This document shows, one piece after another, positions 1 to 64,000 of a stretch of 64,000 bases of DNA; the first letter of the stretch is position 1, and every line of letters begins with the position of its first letter. The notes under the pieces are model-generated. The model did no database searches. It was not told where the DNA came from and worked only from the letters and a program-made list of their open reading frames with translations. The stretch spans positions 10,814,161 to 10,878,160 of the forward strand of contig CAVNZM010000001.1 of NCBI GenBank assembly GCA_963693365.1, in the 5' to 3' direction. Made by a program: the position numbers and the translations under genes. Source of the stretch: Amoebidium appalachense. Lineage: Eukaryota > Protista > Ichthyosporea.

Positions 1-356
1 CCCCTTACCCCCCCCCCCCCCCCCCCCCCCCCCCCCATAATTAATATACATATACATGTGTGTGTGTATTTTAAAATAAATTAAAACCCACACCAACCCA
101 AGGAAAGAAAACATCCAACAAAACAAATGCGGTTCGTACATTCTTGCAATAGCACAGCTGCCATGAAGTAGAAGGAAGGATAAATCATTATAATGAAGAA
201 GCAAGTGCGAAACGTGTCGTTTTGCAGAGTCATGCATGCTACGCACGAGATTTTGGGTGAAGGAAAAACACGGGTGTGTGGGAAGGGGGGATGAAGAACG
301 GTATAGGTTAATGTGAAAAGTGGCAGTGATGGTGCGTGTGCCTGTCTTCGGGCGCG

Positions 357-1171: not shown

Positions 1172-1774
1172 GGGGGGGTTTGAATGCGTCAAAAAGTACG
1201 AAGTACACAAGAACAAACGGATAACACGATGCAGAATGCAAGCCATACATAAAGAGTATGCATAATAAGCAGAGCCCATCCTCAGGGGGGGCCCACGTCA
1301 TCCACAGTACCCGAGTTTCGACCTATTCACCTCGTTAACGGAACCCAACTCAGATACTGTTTCACTTGAACATGGGTAGGTCACCCGTCTTGATCAGAGA
1401 CGAGCAGGGTTGCTTATGCAGACAAGGGCAGTGGGAAAGGCCGGGGGTTAAAGTTGCAGCAGCACGCAGAAGCAAGAAAAATATAGATAGGAACTCAGAA
1501 GACGGGGCTTCTAGGAAGCTCCCCCGTCGCTACCTAAGTCGATACTTCCCTGGCCAACATACTGGCTAACATACTACACCAGCTGAAAAGAATTAAGTCC
1601 CGAAGGCCGCAGATTTCGCAATCAGAGGGGATTTGACCCACGCCGCAGGGTAGTAACACTCTTACTAGGGCGGAACTTTGACGTCTTCGAACGGAAAGCT
1701 ATGCCCCCGGATGTCAGCCGGAAATGTGGTATCACCCATTGCTTGAAGAAAGCCAAATCGATAGTCCGAGTTAT
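1172..1774 (-). mobile_element. Longest copy (~600 bp) of a dispersed non-coding repeat, retroposon-like ('family A')
   Basis: Near-identical, with a few substitutions and small indels, to 62401-63008; both copies end at the same points (GGGGTTTGAATGCG...GATAGTCCGAGTTAT). Shorter diverged copies elsewhere share only the G-run end, which is taken as the element's 3' end on the minus strand. Confidence 0.8.
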
Positions 1775-5330: not shown

Positions 5331-5661
5331 GGCCTGTTTGTTTCCGCTTCTTTTAGTCAGACTCTCATTCCTGTTCACCGTTCGTATCGGTACGTTACCT
5401 CGCTATTTCACGTTTTTTTTTGCAGCCCTCTCCCTCGCTCCAAAATGATATGCATTTCTTACAACCATGAGAAGTGAGTGTACTCCTTAGCTTCTCCACT
5501 GCAGTACAAGACATTCGACTGCAGTACAAGACATTTAGACATTTTGAGTTAGTTTTTTCAAGGATTGGTCGGTAGGTTGCTTTAGGCACGAAAGGACAAA
5601 GAATCCCTCTTCTAATATACTTATTTCTCCTCAGGTTAACCGGCGTCGGTTCAACGCAAAA

Positions 5662-8602
5662 ATGGCGACACAGAAATGGGATGCCCGCTACTCGCACCCC
5701 GTACCCCACAACAACACTTACTATGCTAAGTGCATGTTGGGTGGTGTGCTCAGCTGCGGTCTGACACACTTTGCCATCACCCCCATGGATGTTGTCAAGT
5801 GCAACATGCAGGCACGTCCCCCTGACCCCTTCACTTCTCCCTCTGTCCTTCTCCGTCTCGTTTCTCTCTTTCTCCCCTCCCCCCTTCTTCCCCAATCCTC
5901 TGTTCTTTCTTCAGCTTCCACTCCCGTTTCCCTTGTACTTCTTGGACCTTTCTCATCACCCTTTGCCCTTTCTGTTACCTTCATGATGTGAAGCCGTGAA
6001 GTCTTGTTCTTGGTTGTATACACCTGTATAGGGTTGTCACTGGCCTTTCCTTTCAGACTTAACCCTGTTCGAGGACCACTCATATCTGTACATACGAGCG
6101 CATAATGTTGGTTTATTCCATTAATGTGAAGTTGTTAACTGCTTAGTGCAAGGCAAGTTTTCACTGGTCACGGTTTCAGCCCTCCCAGATTTCTGGTGAA
6201 GTCAAGGTTCTGGACAGGTCAATCATATTGTCTCCAGGGGCTTGCTTGCCCTTGCTCATGTTACACATCGGTGCTATACATGGCTATCCGAAGTCACTCT
6301 CCCTTCTCGGGCTGTCTACCAACCAAACAAAGTCTCCCGGATTCACAGTAAATGTGTTACCACTCTTTGCCAGGGCACTAACCCTTGTCGGTACCTCTGC
6401 AGGTCAACCCCAGCAAGTTCAAGGGCCTTGTGCCGGGCTTGAAGCTCGTTGCTGCCGAGGAGGGCACTGCTGCTCTGTTCAAGGGCTGGGCCCCCACTCT
6501 GATCGGCTACTCTGCTCAGGTGTGTACTTACTAGCCCTTTGTGAATGAGCAGTTTTTACACCCTGCCATGTAGTTTGGGTGAAGCGGGGGTGTGAAGTAG
6601 CTCTGCTTTGGGAGCAGTTGGGTAAACTAGAAAGGGACCCAACCCACCGATGTGTAGCATAGCCCTGTCCTGGTGTGGGAGTTTGTGGTTGTGGGCACGG
6701 TGGTTTGTGGGGAATCATAGGTGTAGAGGTAACATGCAGGGTAGTAAATGTACAAACTAGCAATGGCGGCCACGGGGAATGCTTGTGTTGACATGCACTA
6801 GGTAAAGGGTGCGTAGGGCTCAGTGTTTTATTGGCCGTTCGTTCTGACATCAAGGTTTGCCACAGGGTCTGTGCAAGTTCGGTTTCTACGAGTACTTCAA
6901 GGATCTCTACAGCACCATGGCCGGTGAGGAGAACTCCTACAAGTACCGTGGTATGATCTACCTTGCCGGCTCGGCCTCTGCCGAGTTCTTTGCCGACATT
7001 GCCCTGTGCCCATGGGAGATGGTTAAGGTTAAGGTGCAGACCTCCCCCGCCGGCACCTTCCCCACTGGTCTTGGTGCCGCATGGGCCGCCATGTCCGCCA
7101 ACAAGCTTGAGACACGCTTCCCCTTCGGCTCCCTCGTTCCCCTCTGGTCCCGCCAGATCCCCTACACCATGGCCAAGTTCTTCTTCTTCGAGAAGACCGT
7201 CGAGGCCTTCTACACGTACGTGTTCACGCAGCCCCGCAGCACCTACAGCAAGGGCACCCAGCTCGGCGTCACCTTCGGTTCTGGTTACATTGCCGGTGTC
7301 ATCTGCGCCATCGTCTCCCACCCTGCCGGTGTGTAGTCCCTCCCATCCCTCCCTGTGCTATATAGTGTTACCCCCCCACCCCTCCCTCCCTTGCCTTGTG
7401 TTGCAAACTTTGTGTGCAAACTTTGTGTATGTATGGATTCTAAACCAGTACTTGATGCTGCATACCAGGTTTACCTTCAACCTGCCCGCCCCCCCCCCCC
7501 CCCCCCCCCCCCCCTCTTCCCCTCTTAACTGTGGTTTCATCTTCGTCCTTGAACACCTTTCTATGGCCCCTGGTCATCATCTTGTTGGTTCCTTGCTGTG
7601 CCTACCTCAATCAAACCCCTCCAACCCAGCACACAGACATACAGAGTTTCCTTGTGCCCGTTTCCTTGTGCCCGCACGGCAAACTGCTCTACACCTGCAA
7701 TAATCAATTCAATCGAAATGCACCGTCTTGTCTCCTACCTCCCTACCTACTTCCCTCCCCTCCCTCCCTACTCAAGCAACAATTCATCTAACATGATCCC
7801 CCGTGCAGACTCTATTGTGTCGCAGATGGGCAAGGCTAGCAACAAGGGTAAGGGCTTCGGTCAGATTGCCAGCGAGGTGGGCATCTACAAGCTGTGCACT
7901 GCTGGTCTTGGCACTCGTATTCTGATGATCGGTACCCTCACCGGTCTTCAGGTAAACAACTCCCTCCCCTCCCCCCCCCCCCCCCCCCCCCCCCCCTCCC
8001 CCCCTCTCACCCCCTTACGTAGTCTTACAGCCGCCCCAAGTCCTTGCACGTTACACCATGCACATACCCCCCTACGTGTGTCCTCACCCTCTCCCTTACC
8101 GCTATCTTCCCACTTACCCGTTTCTCGCTTCTCACTGAAGTGAAACACGTATAGTATATAGATTGGTGGGGACAAGAGGACATGGCACACGTCGTTTGTT
8201 GGGCACGTGTCTGACGCCCCCTCTCCCAACAGTGGTGGATCTATGATGCATACAAAGCATACACTCATGTAGCCGCAGAGAGAGCCATGCATAGGGATAT
8301 TGTGCAGTCACGTTATGCTTAGCTCTATGCTTTCACCCTATCTGGGCTGTGGGCACGGTTTTTCTTTACCTTTTTATAGCGCACGTAGCTGAATGGAGAA
8401 TACAATTGCCATCGCACAACTGAAAATTAGGCATATTTTGATTGACCCAAATACGTCGATTTTCATATACGTATGTAGGTATTATGTATGTATGAGCAGG
8501 TATTGAAACCTTTCCCCCTTCCCTCTTCAGTGGTGGATCTACGACACTTTCAAGACCGTTATGGGCATGGGTACTTCCGGCGGTGTGCAGAAGAAGCACT
8601 AA
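5662..8602 (+). CDS. SLC25A3: Mitochondrial phosphate carrier (SLC25A3/MIR1/PiC family)
   Basis: Exons 5662-5811, 6403-6519, 6866-7328, 7809-7951, 8531-8602 join in phase. Carrier motifs PMDVVK, PWEMVKVK, HPAD; family-typical GYSAQGLCKFGFYEYFK, LWSRQIPYTMAKFFFFE, MIGTLTGLQWWIYD. The first coding intron is GC-AG. Confidence 0.95.
8233..8322 (+). CDS. Alternative (duplicated) terminal exon of the phosphate carrier
   Basis: CTGAC branch-like motif plus CCCCCTCTCCCAACAG acceptor, then in-phase WWIYDAYKAYTHVAAERAMHRDIVQSRYA*, paralogous to WWIYDTFK... of exon 8531-8602. Confidence 0.7.
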   Translation, partial: WWIYDAYKAYTHVAAERAMHRDIVQSRYA

Positions 8603-11867: not shown

Positions 11868-13499
11868 TTAAACGGTCATTCCCACCCACTTCCCCGGCTC
11901 GGACATGCGTGCATCCCTCTCCGTCACCACACATAGCCTCTCCCCGTCCATCCACTCCTGGCCCGACCCATCCTTCTTCACTTTAACGTAACGGTACCCA
12001 ACCATAGTGCTCGATGGTAGCTTGATCGTTAAAGTATACCGCGCACCCCCGGAAGAACTGAGTTTGGGCGCATGCTCCACCTTCCAGTTGCCTAATTCGG
12101 CCGCGTCACCAACTACCGCCAAGTACTCGTCTGTTTTAACGTGGTCGCATAGAATAAAAAACGTGACACTTACACTTGTAGGGCTCCCGGGTGTTAAAGA
12201 CAGACCCAAATCTGAAATTTTGCTTCCCGACCGGTTGGGGGACCTCCTTCCTCCTTTAACGTTCCGCTTTTTGCGCAAACGAACGACCAATCCGGCAACG
12301 ATTATAACTATTAAAGCGGCACAGGCAACACTGATCAGTACGGTGGCCGCAGTGCTAAGTGCCGGACGGGAATCGATCGGCTCGCCAACTTTAACGTCAT
12401 TATCCGATGGGGTTGCAGGTGTTTGAGGGGTAATTACAGGCCGTTGACTTACAAAAGCCTCCGCCGTAATCGGTAATACCTGGGGTGTTGGCTGTGAGGG
12501 TTCCGGCGTTTCTTTAACGATGGTGGGTGCCGGCTCGTTGTTGGCCGTGTTGATTGCTGTAGACGGGACCGACGCGTTAAAGAACCTCGCAACAACCTCC
12601 GAAATATCAACCTGCCTTTTACCCTTACTGCTACCGGGTTTCGACGACGCAGAACCATCGCACGGGTTTGCGGCACTGCAAATCTCCGTGTCTTTGCCCT
12701 CACATCCCTTCCCTCCATATGCCTGGCCAATGCACTTTCGCTGTTTTATCCCCTGCCCACAAGTTTCACTACAAACAGTCCAGTCGGTCCATTCCCCATC
12801 TTGTGCCGGGCATAGCGTGTCCGCACACCCCCCAATCTCCGAAGAAGGCTTCAGTGCGGGATTACAGTAGCCGTTCACCCACCCGCTAGGAGGTTGCCCG
12901 TTTACGTTTTGGCACGCAAATTCGATCTTCTGCACACCCCACCCACACGTCGCACTGCATGGTGACCGGCCCATTTCAACCCAGATGCCTCCGCCTAAGG
13001 GGAGATCAGCGAACCTTACAGGCGTGAGCTGGGCGTTTTGGGGTGAATTCGCTGCCGTGCTGCACCAATCAGCAACTGACGGACGAAACGAGCACACGTC
13101 TCCCTTGTAGTTTTCGCACACACCAGGACAGGTCCCTTGCTTGGGATTCACGAGAGATCTAGCGTAGAATGTCTGTGATTTTTTCCCGTTTCCACATACG
13201 CCTGTGGTGGATGGTATCCCAGCTTTTCCGGATACTTCGAGGCATTCGCTAGTGAAAATATTTTTCCAGTTACCGGATGGGTATTGTGTCCAAAGCTGGG
13301 TGCTATTGCCGTTGCATGTCTCGAGAGAAACCTGGCCCCGTTTTGTTGAAGTGATGCATCGATCTAATTTGGTGGCCGTCAGCAAAAACATATCAGTTGT
13401 AACAGACACCACACCGCTGCCTGCATCTTGCGCGTTGGTGAACACAAAGTGAAGGGAGAGAATGGCGAATGCCAAGGAGAGTGACAAATGCATGTTCAT
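11868..13499 (-). CDS. Intronless type I membrane protein: signal peptide, ricin-B-like lectin, 2x TSP1, Pro/Thr stalk, TM, cytoplasmic CBM20
   Basis: 543-aa ORF. Hydrophobic N-terminus; ricin-like C..C..QLW..G...CLEV; TSP1 W....SPCSATCG.G and DGEWTDWTVCSETCGQG...RKC; TM VLISVACAALIVIIVAGLVV followed by RLRKKR; C-terminal V.VTF...VVG...ELGNW....A..L...YRYV...W matches the CBM20 consensus. Confidence 0.9.
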   Translation of the reverse strand: MNMHLSLSLAFAILSLHFVFTNAQDAGSGVVSVTTDMFLLTATKLDRCITSTKRGQVSLETCNGNSTQLWTQYPSGNWKNIFTSECLEVSGKAGIPSTTGVCGNGKKSQTFYARSLVNPKQGTCPGVCENYKGDVCSFRPSVADWCSTAANSPQNAQLTPVRFADLPLGGGIWVEMGRSPCSATCGWGVQKIEFACQNVNGQPPSGWVNGYCNPALKPSSEIGGCADTLCPAQDGEWTDWTVCSETCGQGIKQRKCIGQAYGGKGCEGKDTEICSAANPCDGSASSKPGSSKGKRQVDISEVVARFFNASVPSTAINTANNEPAPTIVKETPEPSQPTPQVLPITAEAFVSQRPVITPQTPATPSDNDVKVGEPIDSRPALSTAATVLISVACAALIVIIVAGLVVRLRKKRNVKGGRRSPNRSGSKISDLGLSLTPGSPTSVSVTFFILCDHVKTDEYLAVVGDAAELGNWKVEHAPKLSSSGGARYTLTIKLPSSTMVGYRYVKVKKDGSGQEWMDGERLCVVTERDARMSEPGKWVGMTV

Positions 13500-13699
13500 C
13501 GTTACGTTCGTATGGAAAACCCGACATGTCTATGTTTCCTCAACTCAGTACATTCGTGGTGTCACTGTGTGTGTCACTCTCAGACACTGAAAAACTGCAC
13601 CAAGGGCAATGCTAGTCACTTTGAGTGCTGTCTCCCTGCGGCCTATAACATACCCGGAGGCGACAGTCACTAGACAAAGTTTGATCGCGGGTAATCGGA

Positions 13700-14270
13700 T
13701 CTGGCTTTACGAGCGGCGATTGGTTCAAAATGACGTAAGCCTACCAAAGTAGTAAAAAGAAGACATGATCCGGCTGCCCAAACTTTTTAAAACAATGAGA
13801 TTAAATGTTCTCTTTAAAACATTTGAGCATTCCTATTGGTCATTATTTATTGAGCAATCTGATTGGTCATCTCAGCCACAAGGACCCCTCCGGATCACAA
13901 AGCCTTGGAGACTAGTGCAATGCATGTGTACTTGTTTTGGATTCCAGAGCGATATGATTGGCTCATTTTAAGTCGCAGTTCTATGATCGCTAAAATGAAC
14001 CAATAGGAGCCATGGGAGAGTGCGTGAGTATCCGATAGGAACAACCCTTGGTGATGACGATTGACGGTTGCTAGAGTTCTAGTGAGAAAATAGTGTGTTT
14101 GGTCTCTAAATACACGCATTTTTTTTGTGCCCTTTTATTTTACTCCTTTAACTGCAGGAAACTGTTTTATTTGGGTCCACACGACACACCAAGGGGCTGA
14201 CGGCGACCTTCCGAAGATCCAAAGGTATGTGGTTTAGAGCCCTTAACCGATTCCTATTGGTTGTTATCCT
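13700..14270. promoter_or_regulatory. Probable bidirectional CCAAT-rich promoter between the CBM20 receptor and BAR-SH3 genes
   Basis: Repeat-free divergent intergenic region with about six ATTGG/CCAAT motifs (~13720, 13835, 13862, 13957, 14000, 14256) and a TGACGT half-CRE at 13731. Confidence 0.45.
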
Positions 14271-14584: not shown

Positions 14585-15180
14585 ATGTTTCATGCACTCA
14601 AGAAGGCAGTGGGCGCATACAAGACCCAGAACCCTGTCAAGGATCCAGAATGTGAGGAATTGGAAATTCGCTACAGAGACATTGCCACACATGCACAGAA
14701 CATCTCTGGGGCACTGAAAACGGTAAGAGAGAGATACACAGGTCTGCGCCAAAACATAAAGCAGGTTACAGATGCAGCCCTTGCTGCCTTTCCAGAAACT
14801 GGAAAACCAAACCAAATTGCTGCGGACATGGTGAGATATTGTGATGCGTGGGATAACAAGGCGAAGGAACTGAGAGACGGATTCGACTGTCGTATTTTAG
14901 AGGCGGAGAAGTCGTTGAATGAATATATCAACCTGCTTGTGCAGACAAAGACGGCACTAAAGAAGAGAGCGGATGTGGTTGGGGAGGTGGATTACTACCG
15001 CGGAAAGGTGTGTTTGCTAATTCCTGTTCCTGTGATGAGCCCTGTTTTTGTTGTTTTTTGGGGGTTTCCACACGCACGCACGCACACACACACGCACACA
15101 CGCATGCACTTGCACCCACACACGCACACACAAACACACACGGACACACAAACACACACACACACACACACAAACACGCA

Positions 15181-15243
<63 letters not shown>

Positions 15244-15458
15244 GTGTTACAACCACAACTACCGACCCCACCAGCTTACTGAGCTCCACCTGTGTTTTTA
15301 CAAGAATTTTCCCTGCGTGCCCTCCAGTCTTTGACCACCTCCGGTCTCATGTCACACGTTAGACTCATCCTTCTCTATCACACTCAAGCTGCCATATCCT
15401 CCCCCCCCCCCCCCTCCCCCCCCCCCCCCTCCCCTTCCCTCACCCCCCCCCCCCCCCC

Positions 15459-15492
<34 letters not shown>

Positions 15493-15580
15493 CCCCAGCC
15501 TTTTGCATCCCCACCAGGCCATTTAGGAACGGCACCCCCTCTCATCCGATATATTTTGTTCCCTTATTTCCTGTCCTGCG

Positions 15581-15627
<47 letters not shown>

Positions 15628-16002
15628 ACACACACACATCCAACCTCCTCCCCCCTCCCCCCCTTTTTACCCTCTGCCGTGTCCCCCCTGTCCCCCCTTT
15701 CCCGGGCTATCCGTGTAAAAGAATGGTTTCAGGGATTCCGGTGAGGAAAGATATTGTGTGCTGGTCTTCCCCCCTTCCCCCCCACTCCCCCCGGATAGAC
15801 AAAGGGGGCTCCTATATGTATTAACTACGGAATTTGCAGGTGGAAGAACTCACTGAAGCCGTGGCTAAGAAGGTAAGTTGAACTATAATCCTCCCCACAC
15901 ACACACACACACCTACCTCGCCTTCAGCTTATGATGTATACTCTTGTGTGCTTTGCAATCTGCATTGTGTTGTCCGTCATGAATGTGACTTCGTTAAACA
16001 CA

Positions 16003-16051
<49 letters not shown>

Positions 16052-16439
16052 AAACACACCCCTCTCTCTCTTCCCCTTTATGCTGACAATGCCTAATCTT
16101 TAGTGTGCTTTGCAACATGTGTTGCTTTTTTCGTCGTGAATGTGTACGTCCGTAGGCAATGTCTAAACCCCTCTCACCCCCTCACCCCCCCCCCCCCCCT
16201 CCCCCCCCCCCCCTTCTCGGGGAGACTGGGGGAGCCTGGGATCTTCTCATGTTGCCTGCTCTGTGTGTATATGTTGATCTACAACCTGCTGCCTTGTAAA
16301 CCCGTCCCCCCCTCCCTCCCTCTCTCATCGCCCCCTTCCCCCCGGGTTTCATCAATGTGGGCCCAGTTCGATTTATACCCACATGTGCACACATACTTGC
16401 TGCACGGTATGTGCACACCCCTGCACTCTCCTTATACAG

Positions 16440-16479
<40 letters not shown>

Positions 16480-16792
16480 ACCACCACCCACCCACCCCCT
16501 ACCCCCCCCCCCCCCTCCCTCCCTCCTCCGCCTTCCCTTCATCCCCCCCCTCCCCCCCTTCTCCCAATTATTTCCTCCCCAAACATATAGACAAGCCCAT
16601 CCCTCTTTGCATTTTACCACCCTCTGTGTTCACAAGTGTCCATTGCTACGCCACCCTACCCGTCCAACTGCACATATACACACACATCCCCTTGCCGCCC
16701 TCACATCCGCCCAGCCATCCACCCACCCCTATCTCCCCCCAACTCCACTCACCCGCTCCCATGCCCTCCCCCCCCCCCTCCCCCCCCTCCCC

Positions 16793-16823
<31 letters not shown>

Positions 16824-16929
16824 CCTCCCTCCCCCCCCCACACACACATGCACACATCCACACAACACGCCCAACCCCCCCCCCACACACACACAACAGT
16901 CTTGCTCTATCATCCCCTCACCCCCCTCT

Positions 16930-17003
<74 letters not shown>

Positions 17004-17047
17004 ACCCTTGCCTTATCACCCCCTGAACCCCCTCTCCCCTCGTTGCC

Positions 17048-17092
<45 letters not shown>

Positions 17093-17911
17093 ACACCCCC
17101 TAACAAAAAAAAAAAAAAACACCCACACACCCACACACACAGCCCAAAGAAGAAGACCGCCTCCGCTCTACCGAAGTCCACCTCAAAGCCAAAGAAGAGG
17201 AATATGCACTAGCCAACACAGAGGCAAGATCCCTTCTCACCCGCTGCTTGGAGCTGAAGGAGTCTGTGTTTGTCAGTGCGCTTGCTGCCTATGTCGAGTT
17301 TATGCATAAGGTGATGGTGGCTGAGCCCTTTGGAACTATTGTAAACACTCATCCTGGTGAGTGGTTATCTTCTCCCCTCCCCCTTCCCCCCTTCCCCCCC
17401 CTCTCCCCTCCCCTTCTCCCCTCCCCTGTTCCCTCTCCGCCCTCCCTCCCCCACCCGCCCCCCGCCTCCTTTCTCGGCTCTTTCATAGGCGCACGCACAC
17501 ACACACACACACACTACACATACAGACGACCACACCAATGCACACTCTTCTCATTCTCCTGTTCATACGCACAGATGCACTCGCACTCATACGCACATGT
17601 ACACGTCCTTATGCAAGTGCACGCACACACAGCCTTGCTGCCTAAAACAAGCTCATGTATGCACTCATACACGTGGGCACACGCAAACAGGCTCACACAT
17701 ACCACACACACACATGCACACACACATGCACATTATTGCCCTTTGATTGCCACCGTGTTGCTGATTTCTCTTGCTCACACCTCTCCCTCTGCCTCAGCTC
17801 AAAACTCCATCCCCCCCCCCCCCCCCCCCCCCTCCCGCCCTCTCTCTGTGGTTCCCCTGTTGCTTTCCACTCGCATCGGCTATTCTTCCCCTATTCTCCT
17901 AGGCACTCCCT

Positions 17912-17945
<34 letters not shown>

Positions 17946-18575
17946 ACCACCCCACCCCCCCTTACCCTCCCCTGCCATGTTTTTTCCATCGTGAATCTGC
18001 ACCTCATTCCCAATACCACAAACCAACTAACCCCCCTCCCCCTCCCCCCCCCCCCTTCGCCCCTTCCCCCCATCCACCCATCCACCCGCCCAACCACCCA
18101 CCCCCTTTTTATCGTCATATTAGCTTCTATCTCTCTCTATTTCTCTCTCTCTCTCTCTCTCTCCCCCCCCCCCCCCCCCCCCCCCCCCCCCGCCGCCACC
18201 CACCCACCCCCTCCGCCACTCCCTCCCCCCTCCCCCCCCTCCCCCCCACCTTCACAGACGTGTTCCAAATCGCCCCGCCAACCATCGGAGGTCTAAATGC
18301 ACCCCCGTCCCTCGAACCCGTCTATGGAAATGTCGGGTCTCTCAAACCCGGGGTGGGTCCTATGGCTCCAGTCGGGAGCATTCAAACTAGAGACAGGTCG
18401 GGAAGTTCAAATTCGGGGGGGTCCCCCTGCGTATATTGAGTCACAAAATCGCCCATCGATCCCCTCCGGCTCTGAAATTTCGAACGTGCCCTACGCCGGA
18501 ATGCCGCCCACCGCAGTGAAATATGAGCCTCAACCCCCACCGGTTCTTCCTCCGGGCCCACATTTTGTATGCATT

Positions 18576-18618
<43 letters not shown>

Positions 18619-18810
18619 ACCACAACCACCATCACCAAACACACACACACAGCAACACACACACACACACACCTCCCCACCCATTATTCCATCCTGTCGT
18701 CTGTCATGGCTATCCCTAAGTCTAATACCAACATGTTCCTTGAATGTATGTTGCATGTTTCGTGGCTTTGGCCTGTGATTAGTTTTTGCCAATACCCCCC
18801 TTCCCACCCC

Positions 18811-18851
<41 letters not shown>

Positions 18852-19283
18852 TGCTGCAACTTTTCACTCCCGGCCTTCCTCACTCCTTTTGCATGGGACG
18901 TCTGCTTGTGTAACCTGCTTGCATGTGACCAGGAAGGATGGCCCACCCATGTTCTAGTGAAGCAGTATCTGAGTTGGATTTCACATGCGGGGTAAATGGG
19001 TCAAAACTCTTCAACTGTGGATAACATGCCCCCCCCTCTGAGGTTGTGCCCCGCGCATATGTGTGTGTTACATATCCGTTGTGAATTTGCATGTTGTTCT
19101 TTGTACCGTATTCTAACCCACACTTTCTTTTGCGAAACACATAATGCACCCATTGAACAGCACACAACCGTTAATGCACATGCATGTGCTCGCACGCACA
19201 TGTGTGCTTGCACATACACACATACACACACACACATGCGCGCGCGCACACACACACACAGGCACACACCACATACATACACG

Positions 19284-19370
<87 letters not shown>

Positions 19371-19513
19371 GCGCGCGCGCGTACAGGTGATTGCGCTGTT
19401 TGATTTTGTGCCGGAGCAGCCACAGGAGCTTGCGTTGAAGAAAGGGGACAGGATCACTCTGTTGGAGATCCTGGATGACTATTGGATGGCGGGAGAGCTT
19501 AATGGGCAGGTGT

Positions 19514-19545
<32 letters not shown>

Positions 19546-19640
19546 GGGGGAGGGGGGGGAGGGGGGAGGGTACGGTGGGTGCGTGTTTGTGTGTGAGAGG
19601 GGGGGGGGGGGGGGGAAGGGGGGGGAAGGGGGGAGGGGGG

Positions 19641-22636: not shown

Positions 22637-23759
22637 AGGGAGAGATAGAGAGAGAGCCTCGGGGAGAGAGAGAGAGAGAGGGGGGGGGGGGGGGGGGAGA
22701 GAAAGAGAGGGAGGGAGGGAGGGGGGAGGGAGAGGGGGGGGGGAGGGAGAGAGAGCGAGAGAGATTGGAAAAAAAGAGAGAGAGTGAAAGAAAAGGAGAG
22801 GACACACACACACGTTGTCAAGCACACACACTGCTCTCATCTCCAGCTTCAAAAAGGAACCACCCACCCTCCCCCGCCACCCTCACCCTCTTTACCCCCC
22901 CCCCCCCCCCCCCCCCCTCCCCCCTCCCCCCCCCCCCCCCCCCCCCCCCTCCCCTCCCCAGTCCCCCCATTCACCCACCCACCCTGTGGCGAAGTACCAG
23001 CTTCCTCGCTCAGCTGCCCTCAGGCTGTGCATGTATGCGAGCCGTGCAGTAACCACCTTCACCCGATATATATGCATTCGATCTGATTTACTAAAATCAA
23101 TTCAATGTTCAACATCCAAGTGATGCCGACACCAAAACAAGAGCATAGCAAGTTGTTGTGAAAACTCATTTTGACAGTGCCGAGTAAAACGTCGCTGCCA
23201 AACTTAAGTTGCTAAAGCGGTTTGTTTCTGCCAGTAGCTCATGACAGAAGAAACTGAAATAAACTTTGGCCGCCTTAGCAGTGTGCACTCAGCACTCATG
23301 CATGGCGCACGCTCACGGGGGATCCCCATGTTTTCAATCTGGGGGTGTTTTACACCCAAATCCCGGACCCTGAAAACCACCTTGAGGCTTCAAGCAGAAT
23401 TTTCTTAACTTTAGTTTGCAAGTCAGTTTGTGTATAAAAATTTTCTTATTAGACCCTTTGATGTTTTCCCTTGATAATGTACGTTTTTAATTCTGGCAGC
23501 CTGGTGTTTATGCCTATGTTTTTCTCTGCATACTTTCCTCCTTTCTCGTCTTTTTTGGTGATTCATCTAGGAGTCCTAGTGAGCCCAACCCAAAGCCAAT
23601 CAAAAATTATGCGTCACCGCACAAAATTCTCCAAACAAACCAATTTGGGGCATGCGGCACAACTTGAAAAGGCGCAACGGCCTCCCCGGCTACACAAAAC
23701 AGACTCTCACAAAACTAACTTCTTTTTCCGCTGTAACATTACAAAAACACTCCGCAAAC

Positions 23760-24330
23760 ATGCTGGCCGGAACAGCCCGTAAAAGTGTGGTCATTGTAGG
23801 TGGAGGGCTTGCCGGTGCTTCCATCGCCACCAAACTCGCCAAGGCAGGGGGAGTAAACGTTTTGCTGCGAGATGCAAAGTCCTTTTTCGAAGTTCCGTTT
23901 GCTACCCCACGGTGCATGGTTGACCCACGCGTAGCGGACAAGGCGGTGTTTGGTTACTCCCAGTTCCTTCCAGCCTCTGTGCAGTTTAAGCAGGGTGCCG
24001 TTGTGGAGGTTGGGAAGGATGCCGTGAGGTATACGTAAGGAGCGCACGTGGCATTCGTGTGTGTAAGGTGTTAAATGTGTCATGGGGATGTTAGCATGGT
24101 GTTGTGTGTGTGTATGTGTATGTGTATTTATGTGTTGCTTCACGCATTTTTGCTGTTGATCAACTATGTATTGCCCTTGCTCTTAGTAGCTGTACCATTC
24201 ACTTGGCATTGGGAGGTGGCGGTACTGCTGATCTGGTTGTCAATGCGCTTTAGTGACGACTTTTGTCTTAGTCACAGCAGCATGGTCTTACAATTTACTG
24301 GAAAGATGTTTACACATACACACTCGCATA

Positions 24331-24423
<93 letters not shown>

Positions 24424-25824
24424 AGATCGCGAAAGAGAAAAGATAGTGAGAGCAAGAGTAGGGGGGAGAAGAGAAGGGGGGGGGGGGGAGAGAGAGAGAT
24501 ATATATATATATAGAGAGAGAGATAGAGAGTGCGAGATAAACAAGTATACACACCAACACACGGGCTAACACGCGTATGCACAGAGAGAACTGCCACAAG
24601 AACCTAGAGCAATTTCCCATGATATTGGTATGGGCAGACTGGGAAGGGTTAGAGGGGAGGGGAGGAGGAGGAGAAGGCCAATGGAGGGCAGAGGTGAAAG
24701 GGAGTTAGTCAATCACTGAGTCACTGAAAGTGAAAGAGCCTGACAGAGAAAAAGGTGAGCGAGGGAGGGGCTTGAGATAAAGACAGAGAGATGTGGAGGG
24801 ATAGAGAGGGATTCGTGTGTTCGTGTGTGTGTGTGTGTGTGTACGTGTGTGTGTGGGTGGGTGTGTGTGTGTGCTATGTATGTACAACCGGTGGTGGGCC
24901 TACCCCCCGTTCTATTACGGCATCCGTTTTCCCTTTTGGCCCACCTTTCTGACACCGTTCCCTCCCACTCTTGTTTTTTCCAGATCTGTCGACGGCACCG
25001 AGGACCCTTTCGACTACCTCATCCTATGCACGGGGTCCAGCTATCCCATGTTCAAGGGGAATGTTTACGGCGGGGCACAGCAGCCACTTGACGCAGCCGG
25101 GCGGCGGAAGGAATTTGCGCAGTTGAGCGAGAAGATCCGCGCCGCAAACAGCTATCTCGTCGTGGGTGGGGGTGCGGTTGGTGTGGAATTGGCCGGGGAA
25201 CTATCCACCTACTATCCCGAAAAGAAATTGACGTTGGTGCACAACCACGAGCGGCTGTTGCAGACGCTTAAGGCACCCCCTGGCGACAACGTGAAGAGGT
25301 GGCTCGAGAAGAGGGGGGCATCTGTGCTCCTTAACCAGAGGGTCGACCTTAACGCACCTGCCGAATCTGGGCATTACGTGACCAACACAGGAAACAACGT
25401 TCAGGCTGACATGGTCTTTAACTGCACCGGAATTAAAGTCGACACCGGGTACATGCGCAAGAACTTTTCCGAATCGCTCGACAGCATGGGCCAGATTATG
25501 GTCGGATCCGATTTGAAGGTTGCTGGGACGGAAAACATACACGCGGTGGGGGATTGCAACAACACGCCCAACGCAAAAATGGGTGCCCTGGCGTATTTTC
25601 AGGGCCAGGTTGCGGCCGACAACATTTTGAACGAGGCGGCCGGGGGCAAGGGTGGCCTAAAAAAATACAAACCGCCAGCACCGATGATGGTGGTGGCCGT
25701 GGGGAAGAATTACGCCGTTGGTCAGACCCCGCTTGGTTGCATGCAAGGGTTTCCTCTGACTTTTGCCAAGAGCAGGGGACTGTTTGTTGATACTATTCGT
25801 AGTGGCCTTGGGGTGATGGAGTAA
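23760..25824 (+). CDS. AIFM2: FAD-dependent pyridine nucleotide oxidoreductase, AIFM2/FSP1 (AMID)-like
   Basis: Exons 23760-~24034 (donor GTAAGG; an alternative GT donor lies 6 nt upstream in the same phase) and 24984-25824. Motifs VVIVGGGLAG, FDYLILCTGS, VVGGGAVGVELAGE, TLVH, NIHAVGDC. Confidence 0.9.
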
Positions 25825-27458: not shown

Positions 27459-28919
27459 CACACACAGGCACACACACGTATTTTTGGATGTATTCAACGC
27501 CCATTGCAACTACGGTGCAATATATTTACTATGCACATGCACGCCTGCATGTGCACGTCAGTATACGCTGTGTTTTTCAGTAGTTTCCGCATGTAAAAAA
27601 ATACGCGTGCACACACCACCGGTACCATATAAATTTATTGGTAGTGCCAAGCAAAAAACGGCTTTTTATCAGCATTGGGCAGACCTAGGGCGTCCTGGCC
27701 CCGTGGCCACCTGACTGCTAGCATGCCGTTTGATGTATGCAAATAGGTCTAAGGTCAACATGTGCCCAGGCAACCCCGTGCCCGCACCCGCTAAAGCGCT
27801 TTCGCCCACCGCCTTCAACTCCTCCCCGGCGCCCTCATCCCCGCGGCCCCCCCCCCCCCCCTTCCCACCACCACCACCTCCTCCTCCCCGCACTTCCCCC
27901 CGGGCCCTCCCTCCTTCTCCGGCTCGCCTCATCTGCAGCTTGACATTGACACGTGTGCCAAAGGGCCCGTGTATGTGGTTGGGCGGTCCGGAGTTATGAA
28001 GTCCCGTTTTGGTTTATCTGGCTGGTGGTGATTGGCTGTTAAATAATCTGTTCAGATCGAGCCTCTGCTGATTGGCTCCATAAAATAGATCGGGTAGATG
28101 GTAGCTGTAGGATGGTTAGCTCGCCCTGTTTCCACGACTCCACAAAAGAATCCACACATCTATGCATCCCGAAGTTCAAGGAAAGAGTGACTATAGTGTT
28201 CGACAAGAAAGCCTAAGATTAGTCAGAAAGACACAAGAGCATATCGGATAGCTTTGTTATATTTGTTTACCCTCAATGTGTCAACTCGTGTATCTCAAGT
28301 TCCACTCGAACAAACATTCCCGGAATGTGCAGCAAGTGCCACGGGATGACGTGATGTCACTTTGCGAAGGTGTAGCTTTTGGCGTCATTCGACGTCAGTT
28401 AAAAGTATAAAGCCTTTTATAAGTCTTTACCTTCCGCTTTTTTGTGGGGGAAAAAAAACGGTGCTTGTTAATTAGCCAACGGGGCTTGGCATTGCTCGTT
28501 CGAATCGTCACGTGAGTGCTGGCTCGATGCTAGCGAAACCGTTACAACGGAAAGCTTGAGGAAGCAATTGCATCACTATTAAAATCTAAATGTGGGACCT
28601 TGTGCAATGCTGTCCGGATCCATGCCTGAGTATGCCGGAGCACGTGACAGACTCTCCGGACCTGTGCCCCTGGCTCACTCATGATCAACGGGTGTCCAGT
28701 GCTCACCAAGTCACGCAAACGTTCATTGGTAGGATTGTATGAGGCGGGGTTGGATTTTTGGTGGTTCCTACAGATTCCATATATAAAAACCTTTCTTTTC
28801 TGTTTTTTTATATTGTAGTTTGCTTGTGCATCTGATTGCACACTTCACACACCTGCCCGTTGCGGAGGCAGATATGATGATCATCTTGGAAGATAGATGT
28901 GGGCACAGCTATTGGGTAA

Positions 28920-29045
28920 TTGGCGGGCTAACGGAGCCAATCATTTCGTAGCACAGCACCTAAGCCAATCAAACCGAGCCTTGATATCCGGAGTAACAAG
29001 AGCTGATTGGTTGGAATCTCAATGTCCCAACAAGTATATAAAGCC
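28920..29045 (+). promoter_or_regulatory. GFAT core promoter
   Basis: Clustered CCAAT/ATTGG motifs (~28920, 28938, 28966, 29006) and TATATAAAG at 29035-29043, about 130 bp before the ATG. Confidence 0.55.
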
Positions 29046-29166
29046 ACCACTCCCCCCGGTCCCTCAGTTCGACCGGTCGATTTCGCACTGCGTTCTTTGC
29101 AACAAACGCGTTAAGTACACAGCAGGCTTTTATCACTTTCGTTTTTATCCATCGCAAAGCGCGAAA

Positions 29167-33668
<4,502 letters not shown>

Positions 33669-49405: not shown

Positions 49406-50363
49406 ACTGAATCCAGAAGGTACGATACAACGATGTACTTTTTAGTGGTCGTTATCGGCAGTACCCACTTATATTTTCCTCACAAAGAGCTCTATGCGTA
49501 TTGATAACTTTAAAATAAATGCCAAATGTATATCCAAAAAAGGCGATCCTTGTCTCTCCTTTGAGCTCTGGCAGCTGCAGACATTTGCTCTGAGCAAAAT
49601 TTGGGAAGATGTCGGCATACAATGGCATTCAATTTAGCATACCGGCGAAAATTCCGAAGCGTGCGGGTTGACGGAAATCAAGATCATCAAGTAGTATTAC
49701 TTGTCTAATACTGCTAGTGATTCGAGAAGGTTACAAATAGAAAAGACTTGAAAGATCTTATAGCAGATCAAAACCCGCTAAGAGTACTTCAACTTAAAAA
49801 AGATATATCTGTTGTAATAACCCTCAAGGTCAAGACATATATCCCGTTGCGCATTGAGTCATCGTGAGAAAAGCAGTTGATTCGAGAATCCGCCAAAACT
49901 AAGGTTTATCAAACAAGCTGAAGACTTTGGTTCATTGGCTTTTCAATTGATAATGATATTTTAAAAATCAAAATACAGCATTGTAAGTTTAAAAGAGTTA
50001 AAATCAGGATACAATAAGGCTGGCGGCTCAAGATTACATCACAGGAATTCCAGTATAGTCCAAGCGGCCAAGTCACTTTGCCCTCAAACCTACTCGCAGA
50101 CCTTGTGCATAAGTGTTTAAGAACAACAACAAAAGGAAAAGCCAGTAATAAGAATCTTTTACAATTAGCAGAAGAACTCAACCAGTAAAACGCATAACCA
50201 TATTTATTGGCATACAAAGCATACCCACCCGCATGGTAAAGGAATCTTTAACAGTAAGAAGCTAGTGTTTTGAACAGCTACAAACATTGACTTTGGAACC
50301 TGCATCTAGAACTCGTACGACCACAAACTGAAAGTAGCCTTTCTACACACAAAACTAACACGC

Positions 50364-51875
50364 ATGGCGACTGACATGCTCACGAATTTCAGCTCGGCTG
50401 GCAACTTACCACCGCCACCCGCGCACCCACGCCTCATCCCCATCCCCCCCCGTAGGGGCAGCACACCCATAACCACCACACACACACGAACGCTCATTCC
50501 ACAACAGAGACACAGCATATCCACCTCAGCACCCATCCCTATACCCACACAACACAATGTTACTGCCAACACCACCACGATGCCTTGCACCTTCCCCCCA
50601 ACCACCACCATCACTGACGCAGACAGCAGTCTTACGACGTCCCCTACCGGCTCATTCATTGACACATCCCCGCTTCTACCACCGATGGACTCATTGTGGC
50701 TACCCAATTCCCTCGCAGCACAAATCCAATTACTGAACGTAACATCACCAAATATATGTGCTCCGCCACTCGACAGCGTAAACCAACCGCTAATGCCGCC
50801 AGGAATGTACTCCAATGCGGGAATGGGCTCCCTGCCTCTTAGCATGGGACCAGGGATGACCGGTGGCATGGGAATGGATGGGTTGGGAGGGTATGGGCAG
50901 ATGGGTGTTTCCCCCTCACAGGTGTATATGCCCCCCATGCCCTTTCCCATGTATGTGGACGCGGAACAAATGAACGCCCCCTCAACCGTCATGTCACTAT
51001 TACAGCCACCAATTATGAACAATCAGCCTGGTTCGGTTTCTAAAGGGTCGAGTTTCGGGTTGCTCATCAAACAAGAACCCGGCTCGCAAAGGTTGGTGCC
51101 CCACACACCGGAAATAAAACGGGAGAGGGTGTTGGGCACAGTACAGGAGAGTGTGCAAAAACGAAAGGCGCATTTGGCAGCGGAGAAAAGGCGAAGGGGT
51201 AACCTCGGGCGTGCGTTTGAGGACTTACGTAAGGTGGTGCCAGCGTGCAGAATCGCGCCGCATTTCAAAAATAGTAAGGAGACGATGGTGAGGAAAGCCA
51301 TCGAATATATCAACTACTTGAATTCTCAAAGGGGGGATATGGCCGAGGAAATTCGCCTTTTGCGGCAGGCTCTCGACAAAAACGGGTTAAAACCCCCCTC
51401 GGAAATTGGACACGCACGCAAGTCAAGCCACTCTTCGGTGTGCACAGAGGGAACCTGCACCACCCTCGAAGATAGCGACAGTGAAATGGAAGAGGTCGAG
51501 GTGAAAGCACGTGACAACAACGAGAAGCCGGAGAGCATACCACAGGAGACTCGCATGCTCCTCCTCTTGTCACTACTCGATAGTTTCTTTGACGAGTATG
51601 TGACACGAGTGAATATCGAGAGCCCGGAGGCCCTATCTGTGTCCCTCCTTACTTTCCTACAACAGCACATGACACCAGAGAAACTGAGCGCTTCCCTAAT
51701 GGCTGCGATTGAAAATCTATCCAAGAATTTCAACCCGCAAACCGACGGGTCGAATTTGCGCATTCGGAAATGGGCTGACGGGTTGAACGAGTGTTGCCCG
51801 GCGACGTATCCAGAGGCACCGGCAACAAGGGTGAGGCAGATTTTGCTAAATGTGGCGAATTTTCTGGAATATTGA
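50364..51875 (+). CDS. MLX: Mlx/Mondo-family bHLH-ZIP transcription factor, single coding exon
   Basis: Basic region KRKAHLAAEKRRR (H-E-R E-box residues), HLH AFEDLRKVVP...SK..MVRKAIEYI..L, zipper, and C-terminal LLDSFFDEY...V..ES...LS..LL.FLQQH..PE.L resembling the Mlx/Mondo DCD. Exact paralog (Mlx vs Mondo) is uncertain. Confidence 0.8.
   Translation: MATDMLTNFSSAGNLPPPPAHPRLIPIPPRRGSTPITTTHTRTLIPQQRHSISTSAPIPIPTQHNVTANTTTMPCTFPPTTTITDADSSLTTSPTGSFIDTSPLLPPMDSLWLPNSLAAQIQLLNVTSPNICAPPLDSVNQPLMPPGMYSNAGMGSLPLSMGPGMTGGMGMDGLGGYGQMGVSPSQVYMPPMPFPMYVDAEQMNAPSTVMSLLQPPIMNNQPGSVSKGSSFGLLIKQEPGSQRLVPHTPEIKRERVLGTVQESVQKRKAHLAAEKRRRGNLGRAFEDLRKVVPACRIAPHFKNSKETMVRKAIEYINYLNSQRGDMAEEIRLLRQALDKNGLKPPSEIGHARKSSHSSVCTEGTCTTLEDSDSEMEEVEVKARDNNEKPESIPQETRMLLLLSLLDSFFDEYVTRVNIESPEALSVSLLTFLQQHMTPEKLSASLMAAIENLSKNFNPQTDGSNLRIRKWADGLNECCPATYPEAPATRVRQILLNVANFLEY

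Positions 51876-55366: not shown

Positions 55367-64000
<8,634 letters not shown>

What the first reader, a model, noticed from the sequence alone, without database searches (positions are those of the whole stretch)
11868..13499. Predicted surface receptor coupling extracellular lectin/thrombospondin modules to a cytoplasmic glycogen-binding CBM20
Seen: signal peptide, ricin-B-like region, two TSP1 repeats, a KGKR dibasic site, a Pro/Thr stalk, one TM helix (~12345-12283) followed by RLRKKR, then a C-terminal CBM20 (~12180-11870) retaining LGNW, Y(K>R)Y and the second site-1 Trp. Known: CBM20 binds starch or glycogen and occurs on amylolytic enzymes, laforin and STBD1 (a membrane-anchored glycophagy receptor with no large ectodomain); TSP1 and ricin-B domains mediate adhesion and glycan binding. 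The positive-inside rule puts the CBM20 in the cytosol. Inference: a non-catalytic protein binding carbohydrate on both sides of a membrane, for example tethering glycogen at adhesion or wall-synthesis sites, or routing it to vesicles. I know of no described protein with this architecture.
Basis: partly seen in the sequence, partly recalled or inferred. Interest (0 to 1): 0.8.

Follow-up and report, generated by a model that had tools for sequence, protein, structure and literature searches.

The report
Surface protein with inward glycogen-binding domain
This is an intact, transcribed gene, likely from a single-celled relative of animals, for a predicted cell-surface protein with an adhesion-type head outside and a starch/glycogen-binding-type domain inside the cell; that pairing is unusual, but the domain's worn sugar site would likely hold glycogen only weakly.

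Summary
The architecture is real. ORF 11868-13499 (-) encodes 543 aa: a signal-like N-terminus, a full beta-trefoil, two TSP1 repeats, KGKR, a Ser/Thr/Pro stalk, one TM helix with a basic inner flank, and a C-terminal CBM20 (Pfam E 2e-14). Contigs from spliced RNA runs of two studies span ectodomain to CBM20 without a joint. One other protein (P0004, 38% identical) has the same layout, and the two CBM20s group together (98/86). The ectodomain belongs to a family whose named members are all ichthyosporean; 2 of its 7 TM-bearing members carry CBM20. The trefoil lacks the ricin-type Asp/Trp/Asn residues. The CBM20 keeps both site-1 tryptophans but has Lys>Arg and Asn>Glu and no second site; P0004 is further eroded. 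Best reading (0.45): a sheddable surface/wall adhesin whose cytosolic CBM20 binds glycogen weakly, by avidity. Main rival (0.30): a docking scaffold that no longer binds glycogen. I found no description of this architecture in the papers searched. Verdict: new variant of a known kind, interest 0.5.

The parts
11868..13499 (-). Single-exon ORF, 543 aa (P0001)
   Evidence: RNA contigs without joints over 11878-13558
13431..13499 (-). Predicted signal peptide, aa 1-23 (cleavage point inferred)
   Evidence: hydrophobic window 3-21; coordinates
13011..13397 (-). Complete ricin-type beta-trefoil, aa ~35-163, without the Asp/Trp/Asn sugar residues
   Evidence: Pfam; AF2 model pLDDT 89.9; VIA Z 13.8 (rmsd 2.2, 116 aligned); alignments
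12810..12992 (-). TSP1 repeat 1 (divergent, no WxxW), aa ~170-230
12660..12797 (-). TSP1 repeat 2 (WTDW), aa 235-280
   Evidence: Pfam; PDB
12615..12626 (-). KGKR dibasic site followed by QV; predicted kexin-type cleavage
   Evidence: P0004 has RIRR-QV
12342..12614 (-). Cys-free Ser/Thr/Pro-rich stalk, aa 296-386
   Evidence: S+T+P 0.36; 0 Cys
12279..12347 (-). Predicted transmembrane helix, aa ~385-407
   Evidence: KD 3.1; helix 383-411 at pLDDT 60-76 in the single-sequence model
12240..12278 (-). Basic inner flank (positive-inside)
   Evidence: 7 K/R and 0 D/E in 15 residues
11880..12179 (-). CBM20, aa ~441-540; site 1 = W472, R503 (for K), W516, E520 (for N); site 2 absent

Best explanation
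This transcribed gene encodes a predicted single-pass surface protein whose trefoil-TSP1 head likely sticks to the wall, a substrate or other cells and is likely clipped off at KGKR, while its CBM20, predicted to face the cytosol, would bind glycogen weakly and hold it near the membrane only when many copies act together. Shown: the domain order, the transcript, a second protein with the same layout, and common descent of the two CBM20s. Inferred: topology, cleavage, adhesion, the ichthyosporean origin, and any glycogen binding.
For: Domains and topology. Transcript. P0004 shares trefoil-like module, TSP1, stalk, TM and CBM20, and its CBM20 groups with ours at 98/86 among 37 domains, so one fusion was kept through divergence to about 38% identity. 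Both keep an aromatic pair at site 1 (W/W and W/F); F at that place occurs in 6 of 35 comparison domains. CBM20s short of one residue still help binding: an enzyme fusion with potato DPE2 SBDSt2 (no Trp590) had 5-fold higher affinity than the bare enzyme, and AtGWD3 CBM20, presumed to use site 1 only, binds cyclodextrins at Kd 0.22-0.84 mM (PMC9920598; PMC6243121; passages). [KR]R occurs after the last ectodomain Cys in 11 of 14 family proteins vs 4.1 expected from shuffles, and both CBM20-bearing proteins have R-Q-V there.
Against: Loss of both Lys and Asn is seen in only 1 of 35 comparison domains, one that has also lost both Trp. In STBD1, N339A had the largest effect and R333A/N339A abolished glycogen binding (PMC11406230); our domain has Glu at both equivalent places. 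The DPE2 domain lacking the Lys raised capacity 3-fold but not affinity. P0004 keeps only 1 of 4 site-1 residues. 5 of 7 TM-bearing relatives have no CBM20. For P0001 alone the dibasic site is not beyond chance (shuffle p 0.28), and the 14 rows are related. I found no paper showing glycogen in ichthyosporeans; I assume it from general opisthokont biology (recalled). Adhesion rests on domain type only.
Confidence: 0.45

Rival explanations
1. The CBM20 is a pseudo-lectin: a folded cytosolic beta-sandwich that docks proteins (for example glycogen-metabolising enzymes or trafficking adaptors) and no longer binds glycogen itself.
For: Core residues are kept in both proteins (G464, L469, G470, W472, P495, R521) while the sugar-contacting polar ones are changed in both. 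In STBD1 the W472-equivalent W293 is needed to bind glycogen synthase, debranching enzyme and laforin, apparently without glycogen as a bridge (PMC4076837, abstract).
Against: The second site-1 position, which stacks on sugar in STBD1, stays aromatic in both proteins. No partner is known.
Confidence: 0.3
2. The CBM20 is a decaying passenger from an old domain fusion; the protein works only as a shed or anchored adhesin like its CBM20-less relatives.
For: 5 of 7 TM-bearing relatives lack it; P0004's CBM20 has a long branch (1.89).
Against: It is intact and full length in two proteins only 30% identical in this domain; P0004's ectodomain branch is equally long (1.76).
Confidence: 0.12
3. It is a STBD1-like glycophagy or vesicle receptor that routes glycogen to the vacuole.
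For: It is a membrane-anchored, non-catalytic, C-terminal CBM20, as in STBD1 (PDB 8x8k hit E 0.0097).
Against: No [WFY]xx[LIV] motif in residues 406-445. STBD1 site-2 residues H271/Y272/R333 align to L450/C451/E515. The large Cys-rich ectodomain suits the cell surface.
Confidence: 0.08
4. The topology is wrong and the CBM20 lies outside or in the lumen.
For: No dedicated topology predictor was available; the N-terminal hydrophobic window is modest (KD 1.69).
Against: One strong internal TM, a 7/0 basic inner flank, 20 Cys in the N-terminal part vs 2 after the TM; the same TM position in 7 of 14 family proteins.
Confidence: 0.05

Closest known systems
STBD1 (genethonin-1), glycophagy receptor
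   Same: Non-catalytic, membrane-anchored, C-terminal cytosolic CBM20; site-1 Trp pair kept.
   Different: STBD1 has an N-terminal hydrophobic anchor, Atg8-interacting motifs and two sugar sites. This protein has a ~360-aa ectodomain, no such motif in its linker, K>R, N>E and no site 2.
Ichthyosporean trefoil-TSP1-stalk proteins (e.g. SARC_09408, SARC_11485, CFRG1786T1, CFRG8032T1)
   Same: Homologous ectodomain module, S/T/P stalk, frequent dibasic site, TM in 7 of 14.
   Different: Only P0001 and P0004 carry a CBM20; the other TM members have 19-77-aa tails without a Pfam hit. I found no functional study of the family.
Apicomplexan TRAP-family adhesins
   Same: TSP1 repeats, stalk, one TM and a cytosolic tail; TSP1 sequence hits to TRAP chains are weak (E 0.07-0.1). 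It may work like them as a sheddable adhesin with a cytosolic coupling end (analogy, recalled).
   Different: No vWA domain; the tail is a CBM20, not the short acidic tail with subterminal Trp (features recalled).
Mannose receptor family (CysR beta-trefoil at the tip of a type I receptor)
   Same: N-terminal ricin-type trefoil on a single-pass protein; VIA Z 12.8-12.9, rmsd 2.3, 118 aligned.
   Different: No FN2 or C-type lectin domains; shared fold only, tied with many other trefoils.

Membership tests
CBM20 | Pfam PF00686 above the curated cutoff | tested here: met
   53.6 bits vs 23.3; P0004 33.2
CBM20 | Site-1 Trp543 and Trp590 | tested here: met
   W472 and W516 align to them; P0004 has W and F
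CBM20 | Site-1 Lys578 and Asn (STBD1 K322, N339) | tested here: not met
   R503 and E520; K in 33 of 35 and N in 23 of 35 comparison domains
CBM20 | Glucoamylase-type site 2 (Tyr527, Tyr556, Trp563); variable within the family | tested here: not met
   T456, a gap and Y488 in the 1ac0 alignment; residues named
CBM20 | Ig-like beta-sandwich fold | tested here: inconclusive
   The only model covering it was single-sequence, pLDDT under 50 there; sequence matches to solved CBM20s at E 2e-5
CBM20 | Binds alpha-glucan | not testable with these tools
   needs a binding assay
STBD1 | N-terminal membrane anchor without a large ectodomain | tested here: not met
   internal TM after a ~360-aa ectodomain; STBD1 layout
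STBD1 | Atg8-interacting motif between anchor and CBM20 | tested here: not met
   none in 406-445; one unshared match in P0004
STBD1 | Site 2 H271/Y272/R333/W355 | tested here: not met
   L450/C451/E515; W538 is the likely W355 equivalent but lies outside the printed alignment
STBD1 | CBM20 falls in the STBD1 clade | not tested
   no STBD1 sequence was in the tree
R-type (ricin B) lectin | Three-lobed beta-trefoil fold | tested here: met
   model pLDDT 89.9; Z 13.2-13.8 over 112-117 residues; Foldseek E 4e-5 to actinohivin
R-type (ricin B) lectin | Sugar-site Asp, aromatic and Asn in at least one subdomain | tested here: not met
   subdomain 1 T50/E60/T67 and subdomain 2 E88/G100/S108 against aligned lectins (residues named in PMC12355970); subdomain 3 read by eye, divergent
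R-type (ricin B) lectin | Binds glycan | not testable with these tools
   a non-canonical site is not excluded
TRAP-family adhesin | TSP1 + single TM, type I (recalled definition) | tested here: met
TRAP-family adhesin | vWA domain and short acidic tail with subterminal Trp (recalled definition) | tested here: not met
   no vWA among 7 Pfam hits at E up to 10; the tail is a CBM20
Ichthyosporean trefoil-TSP1-stalk family (defined here) | Homologous trefoil + first TSP1 module with shared Cys pattern | tested here: met
   22-43% identity and 8 invariant columns over 12 rows; 11 of the 13 relatives counted carry a name or id, all ichthyosporean

The most novel reading that the evidence does not exclude
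A surface adhesin that physically links the outside of the cell to its glycogen store: the cytosolic CBM20 moors glycogen particles (and their enzymes) at attachment or wall-building sites, or lets glycogen levels govern retention and shedding of the adhesin. That would be a new kind of receptor coupling, with a storage polysaccharide as the intracellular ligand.
Probability: 0.3. Interest if true: 0.75.

Novelty: new variant of a known kind. Interest (0 to 1): 0.5.

Why it matters
Cytosolic tails of adhesion receptors normally bind proteins. A tail built to bind glycogen would be a direct way to place fuel or wall precursor at a point of attachment, in a lineage studied for the origin of animal adhesion. 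Even if it does not bind, the pair P0001/P0004 is a natural case of a carbohydrate-binding module being repurposed after fusion, and a ~100-aa soluble domain makes the question cheap to test. The work also outlines an unstudied ichthyosporean family of trefoil-TSP1 surface and secreted proteins.

Tried and rejected
No whole genome is held, so paralogs and glycogen genes of this organism could not be searched, and I cannot tell whether P0004 is an ortholog or a paralog. No RNA holder is on record; RNA status was shown instead by spliced contigs. X9, X11 and X7 have no cover over 13818-14200 or around 13587-13603; contig holes prove nothing. X11 and X7 (two studies) stop at 13557-13558 where DNA run X12 goes on, a weak hint of the 5' end. 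The word-based homolog search of the whole protein gave 1 TSP-rich hit among 7995 candidates; TM+CBM20 gave 0 of 1869; the module profile gave 5 of 4843, none with CBM20. All three missed P0004, so the census is incomplete. The single-sequence AF2 model was unusable (pLDDT 37). ESM Atlas: no usable hit for P0001 or P0004, and only generic CBM20 clusters at 0.83 for the tail. Five Creolimax relatives were not found in that species' secretome table; that the Cfra and CFRG numbers match is unverified, so this says nothing on shedding. No earlier scan findings. Rfam: 0 hits in the window. I first read the upstream repeat as a 5' UTR intron or spliced leader and dropped that in favour of a transposon end. 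A recent transposon-driven fusion was rejected: the fusion is shared with a 38%-identical protein. The CBM20 donor is unresolved: the nearest row, P0128, joins at 93/89 on long branches. No complex prediction was run, as no protein partner is claimed.

Full report
Observation. The minus-strand ORF 11868-13499 translates to 543 aa without stops. Pfam finds Ricin_B_lectin (44-133), TSP_1 (two stretches) and CBM_20 (443-521, E 2e-14), each above its curated cutoff. Hydropathy gives a signal-like window at 3-21 and one strong helix at 387-405. The 15 residues after the helix hold 7 K/R and no D/E, against 2 and 2 before it; 20 Cys lie in residues 24-282 and 2 after the helix. This fits a type I protein with the CBM20 in the cytosol (inference; no SignalP or DeepTMHMM was available).

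Transcript. The window is eukaryotic, with repeat-rich introns, but this ORF is a single exon. Runs X11, X7 and X6 are spliced RNA: their contigs join across two introns of a neighbouring gene (one joint reads GT..AG, the other is ambiguous by 6 letters), while DNA run X3 covers that stretch in one piece. X11 (study P4) and X7 (study P3) each have one contig identical to the window over 11926-13557 and 11878-13558, with no joint inside the ORF. So head, TM and CBM20 lie on one transcript. The last 10 bases of the ORF are not bridged. Contig depth says nothing on expression level.

Relatives. A phmmer search of 1.84 billion representatives gave 473 hits at E up to 0.001; 150 were listed, mostly TSP1-rich proteins. 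P0004 (811 aa, 38% identical, unnamed Logan record) matches the ectodomain (39% over 251 columns) and the stalk-TM-CBM20 part (26% over 230 columns) and has its own Pfam CBM_20 hit (38 proteins scanned). Its called start aligns to our M37, so it is probably truncated at the front. Of all 169 proteins held, 21 have a CBM20-like domain by my own profile, and only P0001 and P0004 combine it with a TM and TSP1 motifs. In a tree of 37 CBM20 domains the two group at 98/86, which points to one fusion event. The ectodomain module defines a wider family. I counted 14 full-length, non-redundant proteins, leaving out near-duplicates P0153, P0154, P0155, P0159 and fragments P0023, P0046, P0047. Seven have a TM and 2 of those 7 a CBM20. 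Eleven of the 13 relatives carry names or ids, all from Sphaeroforma, Creolimax or Amoebidium, so the window is likely ichthyosporean (inference from this family only).

Ectodomain. AlphaFold2 on aa 29-282 with an 18-row alignment gave pLDDT 89.9. The first ~130 residues form a full beta-trefoil (Z 13.8, rmsd 2.2, 116 aligned to ThreeFoil; 13.2 to actinohivin; 12.8-12.9 to the mannose-receptor CysR domain), followed by TSP1 repeats (Foldseek E 1e-5). The sugar site of ricin-type lectins uses Asp22, Gln35, Trp37 and Asn46 among others (PMC12355970, passages). Aligned to such lectins, subdomain 1 has T50, E60 and T67 at the Asp, aromatic and Asn places, subdomain 2 has E88, G100 and S108, and subdomain 3 is divergent (read by eye). 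'Lectin' is therefore a fold label only. A [KR]R pair follows the last ectodomain Cys in 11 of 14 family proteins against 4.1 expected from shuffles (P 2e-6, but the rows are related; p 0.28 for P0001 alone), and both CBM20-bearing proteins read R-Q-V there. Kexin-type cleavage after KR is recalled knowledge; shedding of the head is inferred.

CBM20 site. Site 1 is Trp543/Lys578/Trp590 in glucoamylase numbering (PMC9920598, passages) and W293/K322/W334/N339 in STBD1 (PMC11406230, passages). Alignments to 1ac0 and 8x8k give W472, R503, W516 and E520 here (a one-residue shift would put R521 at the Asn place; neither is Asn). P0004 has W, Q, F, E. Among 35 comparison domains from 9 other hits (chosen by likeness to the query, binding untested), K is kept in 33 and N in 23; both are lost in 1, which has also lost both Trp. 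Glucoamylase site 2 reads T456, gap, Y488; STBD1 site 2 reads L450, C451, E515. Against binding: STBD1 N339A had the largest effect and R333A/N339A abolished binding. For residual binding: both proteins keep an aromatic pair; a DPE2 CBM20 without Trp590 still gave 5-fold better affinity in a fusion, though the one without Lys did not improve affinity; and AtGWD3 CBM20, presumed to use site 1 alone, binds at 0.22-0.84 mM (PMC6243121, passages). STBD1 W293 also mediates protein contacts (PMC4076837, abstract), which feeds the scaffold rival. No [WFY]xx[LIV] motif lies in our linker.

Mechanism. Most likely (0.45): the protein is made into the secretory path and displayed at the surface or wall, its head is clipped at KGKR or stays as an adhesive tip, and the cytosolic CBM20 binds glycogen with low affinity, useful only through many clustered copies. 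Shown: sequence, transcript, conserved layout, residue states. Inferred: topology, cleavage, adhesion, binding. Rivals: protein-docking pseudo-CBM (0.30), passenger (0.12), glycophagy receptor (0.08), wrong topology (0.05).

Comparison with what is known. It is a CBM20 by profile but fails the Lys, Asn and site-2 tests. It is not STBD1, not a TRAP and not a demonstrated lectin; it works at most like STBD1 (membrane-tethered CBM20) grafted on an adhesin-like head. Searches for the architecture in print: CBM20+transmembrane+thrombospondin gave 1 paper, whose passages are unrelated. Ichthyospore+glycogen+thrombospondin gave 3 papers (2 listed; listing only). Creolimax/Sphaeroforma/TSP1/ricin/secretome gave 14 (listing). 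A five-term search gave 111, of which 25 were listed and 1 of the 25 mentioned CBM20 (listing only). A survey of 74 metazoans reports seven CBM20 architectures in three clades, GPCPD1, laforin and STBD1 (PMC12913940, passages; its figures and supplements not seen). PMC4739763 (passages; supplement 3 searched, part 12 of 25 read) and PMC6855841 (term look-up, 0 hits) do not mention such proteins. PMC11286789 (passages) and PMC8061703 (passages) gave background only. The library lacks most subscription papers, and InterPro/CDART could not be queried, so absence from print is not established. Supplementary alignments of PMC9920598 and PMC11406230 were not seen and could refine the residue mapping.

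Verdict. A real, expressed, conserved but rare domain fusion, apparently undescribed; the glycogen-tether function is plausible but undercut by an eroded binding site. Novelty: new variant of a known kind. Interest 0.5; 0.75 if glycogen tethering is shown (probability 0.3).

Noticed in passing
window ~13612-13775 (-), about 110 bases upstream of the start codon: End of a multi-copy element: many contigs in all four laid runs match 13613-13644 and 13654-13741 with unrelated flanks. The window copy folds as a long stem (DNA, z -2.8, 3 of 200 shuffles as good) and ends in CTAG. Looks like a Helitron-type 3' end (hallmark recalled, not tested).
   Followed up: partly
window 13553 and 13527 (-): Two upstream ATGs within the span covered by RNA contigs: a 2-codon ORF and a 44-codon out-of-frame ORF that overlaps the main start; they might damp translation.
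   Followed up: no
P0010, P0014, P0021, P0023, P0046: A subfamily lacks about 55-75 residues of the trefoil, keeping roughly one lobe; it may complete the fold by oligomerising. Several also have an N-terminal RR-Q pro-segment.
   Followed up: no
window 1172-1774 and 62401-63008: A ~600-base repeat at 92.6% identity, with a ~200-base inverted partial copy at 18851-19049; no Rfam hit; likely another mobile element.
   Followed up: no
window ~5630-8140 (+): Spliced gene that reads as a mitochondrial phosphate carrier (name from reading the translation; joints). Used as the RNA control.
   Followed up: partly
window 14585-19600 (+), 23583-25821 (+), ~28900-33500 (+), 50310-51872 (+), ~60000-61800 (-): Neighbours that read as a BAR/SH3-like protein, a pyridine-nucleotide oxidoreductase, a glucosamine-6-phosphate synthase, a single-exon bHLH factor and a dynein intermediate chain (names from reading, not tested). 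None suggests a glycogen gene cluster.
   Followed up: no
P0059 (Lineus longissimus, 5420 aa): Eight CBM20 repeats, five with Phe in place of the second site-1 Trp while Lys and Asn are kept.
   Followed up: no
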